A stretch of DNA of 8,315 nucleotides, taken from positions 1 through 8,315 of the IMG/VR virus record IMGVR_UViG_3300045988_169852; one strand, given 5' to 3'. Source of the DNA: a virus. Its lineage: Duplodnaviria > Heunggongvirae > Uroviricota > Caudoviricetes. Position numbers: made by a program. Below, one piece after another: positions 3,001 to 6,000 of this stretch (position 1 is its first letter; each line of letters starts with the position of its first letter).

Positions 3001-6000
3001 GCGCGAATATCTGGCCCGTGAGCGGCAGAATCTTTCTGATGGTCTGGTTATTGAGTTTCCGGTAAAGAAAAAAGATACCGGAAGCCATAGCGATGACGAA
3101 TTAAAGCCACGCGTTGAAAGTCGCGCCGATGGTGTTTTCTGGGTAACGCCCAAAGTGGATAAGCAGTCAGGCGAAATTATCCGGCCTGAGACGTGGTTAT
3201 GTTCTCCGCTTGAACTACTGGGAACGGGGACGATCGGTAAAGAGCATTACCGCGTCATGCGCTGGAAAAAATTAGCAAATCATGAAGTCATCACAATGGC
3301 GATCCCGTGTGGTGGCATTGGCGACCGTGACGGCTGGCGGTTGCTTAAAGATCACGGGCTGAACGTGACAACAAACGGCAAATACAGGGCTATCCTGGCT
3401 GACTGGATGCAGTTAAGCGGAAGCCATGAGGAATGGCAGTTAAGCACAACAACGGGCTGGCATTTTGGCGCGTACATCATGCCGGACGGTTCGATCATTG
3501 GTGAATCTGAAAAACCGATCCTGTTTACCGGAAAAAGTGCCGCTATTAATGGCTATTCGGTTGCGGGTACGGCGGAGGGCTGGCGCGACAGCGTGGCGCG
3601 GCTGGCTGGTGGCAATCCGTCCATGATGCTGGGTATTGCCACGTCACTGGCAGCACCGTTGATTGGCCTTGTTGGTGCTGACGGCTTCGGTGTACATCTT
3701 TTCGAACAGTCATTGGCAGGGAAAACCACCACGCAGAACATCGCATCAAGTTTATGGGGAGAGCCAGACTCACAACGGCTGACCTGGTACGGCACAGCGT
3801 TAGGTATCGCTAACGAGGCAGAGTCGCACAACGACGGGCTGTTACCCTTGGATGAAATAGGCCAGGCCGGAAACGCGCGGGAGGTGTCCACGTCAGCCTA
3901 TACGTTGTTTAACGGTTCCGGGAAATTACAGGGGGCGAAGGACGGCGGCAACCGGGAGATAAAACACTGGCGCACGGTGGCAATCAGCACCGGAGAAATG
4001 GACGTTGAGACATTCCTCAAAACGGAGGGGATAAAAGTCAAAGCGGGGCAGCTTGTCCGCCTGCTTAACGTTCCGATGGAAAAAGCCACGCACTTTCACG
4101 AATACAGCACCGGAAAGGCGCACGCAGACGCGTTAAAGGATGCCTGGACAGAAAATCACGGGGCAGCGGGTCGTGAGTGGGTTAAATGGCTGGCAGGCCA
4201 CCAGCAGGAGGCAAAGGATACGGTAAGGGAATGCCGCGAACGGTGGCGCAACCTGATACCGGAGAGCTACGGCGAGCAGGTCCACCGCGTGGGTGAGCGT
4301 TTCGCCATACTGGAGGCCGCGCTTGTGCTTTCCGGTCATGTAACTGGCTGGGCCGCGCAGGAATGCCGGGACGCAATACAGCATAACTTTAATGCCTGGG
4401 TGAAGGAGTTCGGCACGGGTAACAGGGAATTTAAACAGATGGTTGAACAGGCTGAGGCGTTTTTGTCGTCGTTTGGGTTTAGCCGCTACCTTCCGTACCC
4501 CAATACAGATGAGCGTGATTTACCGATTAAAGAGCTTGCCGGATACAGAAAAGGGAGCATTCGCAACGAAGATGACGAGATGCGCTATTACACGTTCCCG
4601 CACGTGTTTGAGAGTGAGATAGCGAAGGGATTTAATCCGGCGCATTTTGCGCGTGCCCTGGATGCTGCCGGAATGCTGGAGAAGGGAAGCGATCGCCGAT
4701 ACAAAAAAAAGGCGCTGGGCAAGATTGGGGGTAAGCAGCATGTTTTTTACGTGCTGATGTTCCAGCCTGATGATGAAGATTAATCCCCTGTGTGAGGAAA
4801 AAAATTGCGGGTTATGCGGGTTATCCTGTGTATAAGTGTATTAAGTGCATGAATATAAAGGAAACCAATAACCCGCACGTAACCCGCAAAAGGGCATTTA
4901 TAACCCGCAAAAGCACGATTATAACCCGCAGGCGAATAACTGAAGTAACACCGGACAGTCATGCGTAACCCGCAGAAAAAACCCCGTTTGCGGGTTATTT
5001 TGAGCGTTTTGCGGGTTACGTGGTGAGCAAATAATAAACAGGGCGTTTTGCAAAATACTGATATAAAAGGATAAAAAATGGTTAGCACGCTAAGATAACC
5101 CAATAACCCGCATAACCCGCACATGTTTCTATATATATAAATTGAGGTGGCAAATGACCAGAACACGCAGAGACAGAACAGAGCCAAAATATAAAGCGTT
5201 AGACATGACTGAGCACACCTTAAAGGTGGCAATCAGAACGATAGACCGCCACACGCGGGAAGGATACGCGAAGGAACATCCCGACCTGATAAGCGCATTC
5301 ATGACCACGGCGGCGGCAAACTTTGCCACGCTGACAGAACGGGAGATTGCCGAAGCGGAACAGGTGACAACCATCAACGTTAAAACCGGAGAGCAGACAG
5401 CATGACAGCACAGATAGCGGCTTACGGGCGGCTGGTGGCTGACCCGCAGTTAAAGACCACCAGCAAGGGTACACAAATGACGATGGCTAGTATGGCGGTC
5501 CCCCTTCCGTGCAGCCAGGCAGATGACGGAACGGCGACGATGTGGTTATCCGTCCTGGCGTTTGGCAGACAGGCCGACGCACTGGCAAAACACCACAAAG
5601 GCGAACTGGTGAGCGTGGCGGGTAACATGCAGGTAAGCCAGTGGACAGGCCAGAACGGCGAAACGCGGCAGGGCTGGCAGGTTATCGCAGACAGCGTAAT
5701 CAGTGCGCGAACGGCGCGACCGGGCGGCAAAAAAGGCCAGCAGGGGCAGGCCACTGACGCACTGAACAGGGCAAAACAACAGGCGGGTAACGATGATCCG
5801 TACGGGGATAACATACCGTTTTAAGCGACGAGTGACAGAAGCCGGAGCAATCCGGCTTTTTTGCGCCCAAAAAAAGCCCGATAAGGTCAGAGGTGGCTTA
5901 TCGGGCTTTTGCATATGAGGTTTTTTGGTGCACTGACACACATGATTGGGATAATAATTTCATAATTTGCAACGCAACTCAATATCATTGCACAAAATGC

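What the first reader, a model, noticed from the sequence alone, without database searches (positions are those of the whole stretch)
4806..5145. Helically phased iteron origin directly 3' of the initiator gene
Eleven copies of a 9-10 bp motif in both orientations, with spacings near whole helical turns and adjacent AT-rich tracts, form a compact origin of the type described immediately downstream of rep in PICIs (P4 places its origin differently). One inverted pair (4965-4974 and 4989-4998) forms a dyad around an A-rich spacer that could also extrude as a hairpin.
Basis: seen in the sequence. Interest (0 to 1): 0.45.

Follow-up and report, generated by a model that had tools for sequence, protein, structure and literature searches.

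The report
Replication origin of a phage satellite
The repeat cluster is real and is almost certainly the replication origin of an E. coli phage-satellite island (PICI), read by the initiator-helicase gene just upstream; this kind of origin is already known, so the find is sound but ordinary.

Summary
Observation confirmed. TAACCCGCA occurs 11 times exactly (7 on +, 4 on -) between 4806 and 5121, where about 0.003 copies are expected. A degenerate 12th copy lies at 5095-5103. The array starts 23 nt after the stop of a 707-712 aa DUF927 initiator-helicase, a relative of SaPI Rep and SCCmec Cch. The backbone is collinear with EcCICFT073, the E. coli PICI whose rep-ori segment was shown experimentally to act as a replicon.

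Three comparative results tie the array to Rep:
- Sister islands with a different helicase type carry a different iteron in the same gap.
- In 65 relatives across Enterobacterales the 9-mer changes (19 variants) while the layout stays the same.
- Iteron sequence tracks the last ~105 residues of Rep and not the helicase core (partial r 0.77; 0 of 2000 permutations). An E. albertii Rep with a 93% identical core but a swapped C-terminal domain has a different iteron.

- Only the inner sites are helically phased (steps 11, 21, 21). The outer pairs abut at 9 bp.
- No primase domain was detected in the initiator.
- The dyad arms are 9 bp and are simply two convergent iterons.

Verdict: a new member of a known kind. 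The conserved 6+6-site layout and the table of C-terminal domain/iteron pairings are the only additions.

The parts
2645..4783 (+). rep: initiator-helicase. The ORF runs from GTG 2645; RefSeq relatives start at ATG 2660 (707 aa). Residue numbers in this report count from 2645.
   Evidence: Pfam DUF927 E=3e-46 over residues 173-440. PDB 8tch_A 'Pathogenicity island protein' E=3e-14 and Cch 5dgk E=0.016. NCBIfam Cch1 E=8e-9, below its cutoff. Foldseek's only significant hits are to Cch 5dgk.
4463..4780 (+). Rep C-terminal domain (about residues 607-712): the inferred iteron-reading specificity module.
   Evidence: DNA similarity to E. albertii L005 (89%) ends at 4462, and both the C-terminal domain and the iteron differ beyond it. 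The alignment to 8tch ends at residue 607. Sub-threshold Pfam HTH_56 (Cch HTH) hit at 637-706, E=7e-4. Low-confidence AF2 topology is helix-helix-beta hairpin.
4784..4805 (+). Leader between the rep stop and the first iteron (..CTGTGTGAGGAAAAAAAT): a CACA/TGTG core followed by an A-tract.
   Evidence: A similar 'CACAyG..AAAA' stretch lies at the same place in most relatives, whatever their iteron. Function unknown.
4806..4823 (-). Left outer pair: two abutting iterons (TGCGGGTTA x2, 9-bp step).
   Evidence: In the family the first site lies 22-30 nt after the stop in 60 of 65 loci, and 9-bp steps occur 137 times.
4824..4868 (.). AT-rich spacer 1 (45 bp, 69% AT): candidate melting region of unit 1. 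Contains a DnaA-box consensus match at 4827-4835 (-).
   Evidence: Family spacer 1 averages 79% AT against a 50% background, with lengths quantised at 43 or 55 bp.
4869..4930 (+). Inner array of four direct iterons, steps 11, 21, 21.
   Evidence: The same steps recur across the family (11 bp 59 times, 21 bp 123 times).
4931..4965 (.). Linker between unit 1 and unit 2 (49% AT).
   Evidence: Variable in relatives: L008 has about 150 extra bp here, and 14 loci end after unit 1.
4966..5018 (.). Start of unit 2: one + iteron (4966-4974) converging on two - iterons (4989-4997 and 5010-5018, step 21).
   Evidence: Convergent pairs at 22-25 bp occur 28 times in the family, while other relatives have - - - here.
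5019..5094 (.). AT-rich spacer 2 (5019-5103 is 65% AT). 5060-5079 is the 11th least stable 20-mer of the window.
   Evidence: Family spacer 2 averages 63% AT with variable length.
5095..5121 (+). Terminal triplet: degenerate TAACCCAAT plus two exact abutting iterons.
   Evidence: Most two-unit relatives have a + + + triplet at a 9-bp step.
5122..5145 (.). Tail element: T-tract plus (TA)n (CATGTTTCTATATATATAAATTGA). Least stable duplex in the window and a candidate unwinding element.
   Evidence: A TTTTGyTTATATA..AAAAA consensus follows the terminal triplet; a simple TATA-type pattern is found within 30 nt in 30 of 43 two-unit relatives, regardless of iteron sequence. The TA-repeat length varies among E. 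coli strains.
5154..5405 (+). Small conserved ORF (83 aa, phrog_1231, unknown function) next to the origin. Not part of the specificity module.
   Evidence: Its body stays homologous when rep and the iterons are swapped, and it is absent in L005 and many relatives.
5402..5824 (+). ssb: island-encoded single-strand DNA-binding protein, a likely accessory to origin firing.
   Evidence: Pfam SSB E=4e-16.

Best explanation
The 4806-5145 region is the replication origin (ori) of an E. coli phage-inducible chromosomal island. It is recognised by the Rep initiator-helicase encoded just upstream.

Layout: it holds 12 Rep sites of 9 bp (11 exact TAACCCGCA plus one degenerate copy) arranged as two six-site units.
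- Unit 1 (4806-4930) is two sites pointing left, a 45-bp AT-rich spacer, then four sites pointing right on one helical face.
- Unit 2 (4966-5121) is a convergent + - - group, an AT-rich spacer, and three abutting sites. A T-tract/(TA)n tail follows and is the easiest DNA in the window to melt.

Inferred mechanism, by analogy with SaPI Rep:
1. After the helper phage induces island transcription, the C-terminal ~105 residues of Rep bind the iterons without ATP.
2. Rep assembles as hexamers, probably two.
3. An AT-rich segment melts.
4. The ring loads itself on single-stranded DNA and unwinds 3'->5'.
5. The island's own SSB and the host replisome complete initiation.

What is shown and what is inferred: the repeat array, its conserved layout and its co-inheritance with the Rep C-terminal domain are shown here. 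Binding, hexamer stoichiometry, the melting site and replication itself are inferred.
For: 1. Position: the array starts 23 nt after the rep stop. That is the place where SaPI and Gram-negative PICI origins lie (PMC6092414; PMC9371898).

2. Rep family: DUF927, SaPI-type chain 8tch E=3e-14 and Cch 5dgk. Cch/DUF927 is stated to be related to SaPIbov1 Rep (PMC7581432).

3. Backbone: the element is collinear with EcCICFT073 (int, alpA-type HTH, icd, DUF4222, rep, gap, small ORF, ssb, perC, capsid E, decoration D). That element's rep-ori segment drove plasmid maintenance, which was reduced when the ori was deleted.

4. Natural cassette swaps: L002, L003 and L085 share the flanks at 82-96% identity but carry D5_N/DUF5906 helicases. 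In the same gap they have different iterons (ACTGTTCACC; CTGTCTACC). Homology breaks inside rep at ~3030-3072 and resumes at 5206-5226.

5. Family survey: among 65 DUF927-Rep loci from Enterobacterales there are 19 different 9-mers, but the offset from the stop, the orientation pattern and the steps (9, 11, 21, 42-43) stay the same. The modal site numbers are 12 (24 loci) and 6 (14 loci).

6. Specificity: iteron similarity correlates with C-terminal domain identity (r=0.78). The partial correlation controlling for the helicase core is 0.77, and 0 of 2000 permutations reach it. The core's own partial correlation is -0.26. L005 versus the window has a 93% identical core, 36% identical C-terminal domain, and TGGGACAAG against TAACCCGCA. 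The DNA breakpoint is at 4462, about residue 606.

7. Constraint within E. coli: all 12 substituted columns and the one indel among five strains fall outside the 12 sites. My estimate is P~0.02.

8. AT-rich, easily melted segments flank the site sets.
Against: - There is no direct test of binding or replication for this cassette. The tested precedent (EcCICFT073) uses the other helicase type.
- A winged-helix fold in the C-terminal domain is not established. The HTH_56 hit is sub-threshold and found in only 1 of 16 family members. A profile of the domain finds nothing in the PDB. Both AF2 models are poor, with pLDDT ~46.
- The iterons are 9 bp, against 5-6 bp in SaPIs.
- SaPI origins are described with one central AT-rich region. 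Here there are two spacers plus a tail, so the melting site is ambiguous.
- 125-155 bp per six-site unit is much longer than one hexamer can span without DNA bending, so the one-domain-per-iteron picture is speculative.
- Global helical phasing is statistically weak.
Confidence: 0.85

Rival explanations
1. The array is a Rep-binding site whose main job is regulatory rather than initiation. It might act as a roadblock or operator controlling read-through from rep into the downstream ssb-perC-capsid genes, or as a copy-number or incompatibility ('handcuffing') site.
For: - In plasmids, iterons commonly double as control elements (general knowledge).
- The array lies between rep and the downstream genes, which are all on one strand.
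- No separate promoter or terminator is detected in 4600-5400, so transcription probably passes through bound Rep.
- The C-terminal-domain/iteron cassette exchange would also be expected for an incompatibility determinant.
Against: - The array keeps a fixed offset from the rep stop, whereas the downstream gene varies or is absent among relatives.
- AT-rich, easily melted spacers and the tail are conserved with it, which a pure operator does not need.
- The same position in EcCICFT073 contributes to replicon function.
- A regulatory side-role is compatible with, and does not replace, an origin role.
Confidence: 0.07
2. The repeats are bound by a protein other than Rep. Candidates are a small terminase for packaging, the adjacent small ORF product, or the DUF4222 protein.
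For: Repeated short motifs occur in some pac/cos regions (general knowledge). Small ORFs of unknown function flank the array.
Against: - DUF4222 and the body of the small ORF stay homologous (87-94%) when the iterons change.
- The small ORF is missing in L005 and many relatives that still have arrays.
- The same rep-ori cassette occurs with two unrelated packaging modules, lambda-type capsid E/D here and an HK97-type cf-PICI module in E110019.
- The only constant covarying partner is the Rep C-terminal domain.
Confidence: 0.03
3. The origin works through an extruded hairpin or cruciform at the 4966-4997 dyad (or the larger 4876-5022 inverted repeat), as in rolling-circle or single-strand origins. 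In this view the iterons are secondary.
For: As single-stranded DNA the dyad folds at -9 kcal/mol (z=-2.9). The 150-nt segment 4874-5023 folds at -34.5 kcal/mol (z=-5.3).
Against: - The stems are made of the iterons themselves, so any array with both orientations scores well.
- The arms are 9 bp with a 14-nt loop, which is unfavourable for cruciform extrusion.
- Relatives replace + - - by - - - at this place.
- Fourteen loci lack unit 2 altogether.
- No HUH/rolling-circle Rep is present.
Confidence: 0.02

Closest known systems
Gram-negative PICI origins (E. coli EcCI elements; EcCICFT073 rep-ori tested; Fillol-Salom et al. 2018, PMC6092414)
   Same: - Same island backbone and gene order.
- Origin immediately 3' of rep.
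- Sets of iterons flanking AT-rich DNA.
- Same gap between rep and the small ORF/ssb.
   Different: - EcCICFT073 carries a D5_N/DUF5906 (P4-alpha/SaPI5-like) helicase with CTGTCTACC-type iterons. The window carries the DUF927 type with TAACCCGCA.
- I could not see the paper's Fig. 2a, so I cannot tell whether this particular iteron was already drawn there. Its supplements do not contain it.
SaPI origins with Rep self-loading helicases (SaPIbov1/SaPI1; Ubeda 2007 and 2012, as summarised in PMC9371898 and PMC7581432)
   Same: - Rep of the same helicase family (DUF927; 8tch, Cch).
- Origin directly downstream of rep.
- 6-12 iterons, with at least two on each side of an AT-rich region pointing in opposite directions.
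- The C-terminal domain gives specificity.
- Rep is thought to bind as two hexamers.
   Different: - Iterons are 9 bp instead of 5-6.
- There are two tandem six-site units with two AT-rich spacers and a conserved T-tract/TATATA tail, rather than one central AT region.
- Rep has an extra ~130-residue N-terminal domain shared with the D5-type reps.
- Host is Gram-negative.
Satellite phage P4: alpha protein, ori and crr
   Same: - An iteron cluster (crr) lies directly 3' of the initiator gene, with sites in both orientations.
- It is a satellite of E. coli.
- Sister PICI cassettes (L002) use the very P4 type-1 repeat TGTTCACC.
   Different: - P4 alpha is a primase plus D5-type SF3 helicase, not DUF927.
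- P4 needs two separated cis elements (ori about 4.5 kb from crr). The window has one cluster only.
- The iteron sequence is different.
SV40 large T antigen and papillomavirus E1 origins (functional analogy only)
   Same: An initiator that is itself the hexameric helicase binds short repeats in inverted orientation beside AT-rich, easily melted DNA, and loads as a double hexamer. This comparison is made in PMC7581432.
   Different: The proteins are unrelated at this level. The DNA-binding domain is N-terminal in the viral proteins and C-terminal here. The viral origins have 4 pentamers, against 12 nonamers here.
Iteron plasmids (pPS10, R6K, RK2, P1, F)
   Same: Repeated initiator sites lie next to an AT-rich unwinding element. 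Iteron and initiator co-vary as a specificity and incompatibility unit (general knowledge).
   Different: - Plasmid iterons are 17-22 bp direct repeats, bound by WH1-WH2 Rep monomers that recruit host DnaB.
- Here the sites are 9 bp, in both orientations, and the initiator is the helicase.
- DnaA boxes are not a conserved feature here.

Membership tests
PICI/SaPI-type origin | Lies immediately 3' of the rep (initiator-helicase) gene | tested here: met
   The first iteron starts 23 nt after the rep stop. The offset is 22-30 nt in 60 of 65 relatives.
PICI/SaPI-type origin | Six to twelve short iterons, with at least two on each side of an AT-rich region pointing in opposite directions | tested here: met
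   There are 11 exact sites plus 1 degenerate site. The layout is - - [69% AT, 45 bp] + + + +, then + - - [65% AT] + + +. The criterion is as stated in PMC9371898.
PICI/SaPI-type origin | Iterons are penta- or hexanucleotides | tested here: not met
   The repeat is a 9-mer that is exact in 11 copies, and relatives also have 9-mers. This is a difference of degree, not of layout.
PICI/SaPI-type origin | Cognate Rep is an AAA+ self-loading helicase of the DUF927/Cch or D5 type | tested here: met
   DUF927 E=3e-46. 8tch E=3e-14 and 5dgk. Foldseek hits to 5dgk only.
PICI/SaPI-type origin | The Rep C-terminal domain is a winged-helix domain that reads the iterons | tested here: inconclusive
   The fold is not established. 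HTH_56 scores E=7e-4, below its cutoff, and in only 1 of 16 members. There is no PDB sequence hit. AF2 gives pLDDT ~46 with a helix-helix-beta hairpin topology. The genetic link between C-terminal domain and iteron is strong, however.
PICI/SaPI-type origin | Rep and ori are a matched specificity pair | tested here: met
   Cassette swaps. Partial r(iteron, C-terminal domain | core)=0.77, with 0 of 2000 permutations reaching it.
PICI/SaPI-type origin | The rep-ori segment drives autonomous replication, and Rep binds and melts ori without ATP | not testable with these tools
   Shown only for EcCICFT073 (D5-type Rep) and for SaPIs in the literature.
Gram-negative PICI (EcCI) element | int, alpA-type regulator, rep-ori, unidirectional genes, perC and capsid-related genes, about 10-12 kb, own att site | tested here: met
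   Collinear with EcCICFT073. Close relatives are bounded by int and chromosomal genes. The window itself covers only the icd-to-capsid part.
P4-type replicon | Alpha-type primase plus D5 SF3 helicase, TGTTCACC type-1 repeats, and separate ori and crr | tested here: not met
   The Rep has DUF927 and no D5_N, Pox_D5 or primase domain. The iteron differs, and there is a single cluster. Sister cassette L002 does meet the first two points.
Iteron plasmid origin | 17-22 bp direct repeats, a WH1-WH2 Rep, and conserved DnaA boxes | tested here: not met
   The sites are 9 bp and in both orientations. No plasmid Rep family was matched. There is one DnaA-box consensus match at 4827-4835, shared only with L068.

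The most novel reading that the evidence does not exclude
The origin is a fixed 'grammar with exchangeable words'. Two six-site units have a geometry (offset, orientation, steps of 9/11/21 bp, spacers of 43 or 55 bp) that is conserved across Enterobacterales. This geometry would template one Rep hexamer per unit, with one C-terminal domain per iteron. The ~105-residue C-terminal domain and its 9-mer are exchanged together as a cassette, giving at least 19 orthogonal specificities. These would let several satellites co-reside without origin cross-talk. The dataset would give a readable protein-DNA recognition code for this domain and a direct structural prediction (12 sites = double hexamer) for self-loading MCM-like helicases.
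Probability: 0.35. Interest if true: 0.55.

Novelty: new member of a known kind. Interest (0 to 1): 0.35.

Why it matters
The array marks where a widespread family of E. coli and Enterobacterales phage satellites starts copying itself. That step underlies the high-frequency transfer of these satellites and their interference with helper phages.

This kind of origin is already described. The added value is comparative:
- a conserved 6+6-site layout that fits the proposed double-hexamer loading of SaPI-type Reps;
- a natural table of C-terminal domain/iteron pairs that could guide binding, structural and orthogonal-replicon engineering work.

Tried and rejected
- Rfam (E<=1) found nothing in the array.
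- The promoter scan found none. It found two weak terminator-like hairpins, on the - strand only.
- There is no IHF consensus in the window.
- The DnaA box at 4827-4835 is a perfect consensus match but is not conserved beyond one relative, so I do not claim DnaA dependence.
- The overlapping ORFs (150 aa on -, 58 aa on +) have no family match.
- AF2 of the full Rep and of the C-terminal domain both gave pLDDT ~46. I therefore ran no fold search on the C-terminal domain model. The fold search on the full model is informative only for the Cch hit.
- A PDB profile search with the C-terminal domain alignment found nothing.
- Ubeda 2007 and 2012 are not held in the library. SaPI facts are cited through PMC9371898 and PMC7581432.
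- My first literature query was too broad and useless. The search for '8TCH' gave no relevant paper.
- Fig. 2a of PMC6092414, which shows the iteron sequences, could not be read. Its supplements lack the motif.
- Global helical phasing was tested and found weak.
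Full report
1. WHAT IS IN THE SEQUENCE

The gap between the stop of a long ORF (2645/2660-4783) and the next gene (ATG 5154) contains 11 exact copies of TAACCCGCA. Seven are on the + strand (4869, 4880, 4901, 4922, 4966, 5104, 5113) and four on the - strand (4806, 4815, 4989, 5010). Composition predicts 0.0025 exact copies in 340 nt. In 2000 Markov simulations of the region, the most frequent 9-mer usually had 1-2 copies and never more than 8.

A degenerate 12th copy (TAACCCAAT, 5095-5103) abuts the last two copies. It matches the triplet that relatives have at that place. Steps between neighbouring sites are 9, 54, 11, 21, 21, 44, 23, 21, 94, 9.

The AT-rich segments are real:
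- 4824-4868 is 69% AT.
- 5019-5103 is 65% AT.
- 5126-5145 (TTTCTATATATATAAATTGA) is the least stable 20-mer of the whole window.

Nothing else explains the region:
- There is no Rfam match.
- There is no promoter-like site.
- The overlapping ORFs have no protein family match.
- RefSeq annotates no gene there in any relative inspected.

2. THE SURROUNDINGS

The upstream ORF is a DUF927 protein (E=3e-46). It is related by sequence to a solved 'pathogenicity island protein' (8tch, E=3e-14) and to the SCCmec helicase Cch (5dgk). The literature places DUF927/Cch with the SaPIbov1 Rep initiator-helicase (PMC7581432).

Downstream lie a small conserved ORF, an SSB gene, and lambda-type capsid E and decoration D genes. 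The gene order is that of E. coli PICIs. It is collinear with EcCICFT073, whose rep-ori segment was shown to act as a replicon (PMC6092414). The 551-bp region around the array is found almost whole in 120 of 5426 complete E. coli genomes, including an O157:H7 strain.

3. NATURAL EXPERIMENTS

(a) Helicase-type swap. L002, L003 and EcCICFT073 share the flanks with the window at 82-96% identity, but they carry D5_N/DUF5906/Pox_D5 helicases. Homology stops inside rep at about 3030-3072 and resumes at 5206-5226, inside the small ORF. The gap in these elements holds a different repeat, again about 12 copies in both orientations: ACTGTTCACC in L002 and CTGTCTACC-type in L003 and EcCICFT073. The DUF4222 gene and the body of the small ORF do not change with the repeat, so neither is its reader.

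(b) Family survey. A scan of one genome per species returned 80 loci with a DUF927 Rep, and 65 of them have a clear array within 480 nt of the stop.
- The 9-mer differs: there are 19 variants, such as TGAACCAAC, TGAGACAAC, TGGGATAAG, TGACACACT and TAACCCGTT.
- The layout does not differ. The first site lies 22-30 nt after the stop. Two or three abutting sites on the - strand come first, then an AT-rich spacer (mean 79% AT, 43 or 55 bp), then + sites with steps of 11 and 21.
- In two-unit origins a further group follows (+ - - or - - -), then a second spacer and a + + + triplet at a 9-bp step.
- Neighbour spacings are sharply quantised: 9 bp 137 times, 11 bp 59 times, 21 bp 123 times, 42-43 bp 21 times.
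- The commonest site numbers are 12 (24 loci) and 6 (14 loci with unit 1 only).
- A T-tract plus TTATATA plus A-tract follows the terminal triplet in most two-unit loci, whatever the iteron.

(c) C-terminal domain swap. Iteron similarity follows identity in the last ~45 aligned residues of Rep (r=0.78) and not identity in the helicase core. The partial r given the core is 0.77, with 0 of 2000 permutations reaching it, and the partial r for the core is -0.26.
- The clearest case is E. albertii L005. Its core is 93% identical to the window and its C-terminal domain 36%, and its iteron is TGGGACAAG.
- At DNA level the breakpoint is at 4462, about residue 606. That is exactly where the alignment to the SaPI-type structure ends.
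- Conversely, Budvicia L066 has a 56% identical core but a 72% identical C-terminal domain, and its iteron is TAACCCGTT.

(d) Constraint within E. coli. All 12 substituted columns and one TA-repeat indel among five strains avoid the 12 sites. My estimate is P~0.02.

4. HOW IT MOST LIKELY WORKS

Shown here:
- The array is a conserved, Rep-linked cis element.
- Its words co-vary with the Rep C-terminal domain.
- Its geometry is conserved.

Inferred from SaPI work:
- The C-terminal domain binds the iterons without ATP.
- Rep assembles as two hexamers, and an AT-rich segment melts.
- The ring loads itself and moves 3'->5'.
- The island's SSB and the host replisome then take over.

The numbers 6 and 12 fit one hexamer per unit, but this is speculation. 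A unit spans 125-155 bp, so the DNA would have to bend or wrap.

Where melting starts is open. Spacer 1 is the only AT-rich element present in all family members, including the six-site origins. The TATATA tail is the most easily melted DNA in this window.

- The count and the orientations are right.
- Phasing is right for the inner sites. It is wrong for the abutting outer pairs, and it is statistically weak when taken over all sites.
- The dyad is two convergent iterons with 9-bp arms. Relatives often have three - sites there instead, so a hairpin is not needed.
- 'Primase' is an annotation label. No primase domain was detected. The N-terminal ~130 residues are a separate module shared with the D5-type reps. 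The model gives them an alternating strand-helix fold with moderate confidence, and their function is unknown.
- P4 does have an iteron cluster (crr) directly 3' of alpha.

6. COMPARISON AND NOVELTY

This is a PICI/SaPI-type origin. All defining features that can be tested are met, except iteron length (9 bp against 5-6 bp) and the still unproven winged-helix fold of the C-terminal domain.

It is not a P4-type or plasmid-type iteron origin.

Origins of this class in E. coli PICIs were published in 2018. The experimentally tested one has the other helicase type. I found no paper linking DUF927 Reps of Gram-negative islands with their iterons, but I could not view the key figure.

Verdict: a correct, well-supported identification of a known kind of element. 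The modest new content is the two-unit 12-site grammar and the C-terminal domain/iteron pairing table.

Noticed in passing
window 1618-1822 (with ORFs 562-1587 and 1580-2044): Rfam finds a C4 antisense RNA (1735-1822, 72.6 bits) and its a1/b1 target sites (1618-1667, 46.8 bits against a gathering score of 46.7), plus a sub-threshold isrK-like match. The surrounding ORFs carry Icd-like domains. Together this looks like a P1/P7-style c4-icd immunity cassette inside a PICI.
   Followed up: no
window 2645-3072: The first ~130 residues of Rep (phrog_2850) are shared at 84-94% DNA identity with sister islands whose Rep is otherwise an unrelated D5-type helicase. This makes it a separate N-terminal module with a recombination junction at ~3030-3072. 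No family or function was found. The AF2 model shows an alternating strand-helix domain with pLDDT 65-85.
   Followed up: partly
L002 5516-5802; L089 (phage P4) 4291-4590: The D5-type sister cassette uses ACTGTTCACC, which contains P4's type-1 repeat TGTTCACC. P4's crr lies directly 3' of the alpha gene. PICI D5-type replicons and P4 therefore appear to share an initiator-iteron pair.
   Followed up: partly
window 5130-5139: The (TA)n run right after the last iteron varies in length among E. coli strains (0, +2 or +4 bases).
   Followed up: no
window 4827-4835 (-): A perfect DnaA-box consensus, TTATACACA, lies in spacer 1. L068 has TTATCCACT at the same place, but the other relatives lack it.
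   Followed up: partly
L001 13684-20023 versus window 6278-8107: The same rep-ori cassette (95.5% identity over window 2011-5730) sits next to an HK97-type capsid/portal/terminase module (cf-PICI-like) in strain E110019. In the window and in L004 it sits next to lambda-type capsid E/decoration D genes. The islands also use different integration sites (tqsA; cspD-clpS).
   Followed up: no
window 6013-6050: A 14-bp-stem palindrome (ATCATAACTGGATG AACA CATCCAGTTATGAT) followed by TTTTTT lies in the AT-rich stretch upstream of the capsid genes. It looks like an intrinsic terminator between the early and capsid modules.
   Followed up: no
window 8139-8313: This ~175-bp segment matches L002, L003, L004 and L085 only in reverse orientation, which suggests an inverted segment near the right end of the window.
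   Followed up: no
L008, nt 4341-4500 (between unit 1 and unit 2 of its origin): About 150 bp are inserted between the two iteron units. The insert contains a hairpin-like palindrome (ctgaaagatgcgc...gcgcatctttcag). This shows that the two units are separable modules.
   Followed up: no
L005 5139-5345 and 14 further loci (for example L032, L042, L058): These origins have only the first unit, with six sites (- - - + + +, or - - + + + + in L005), and lack the terminal triplet and the TATATA tail. They may be minimal functional origins or decayed ones.
   Followed up: partly
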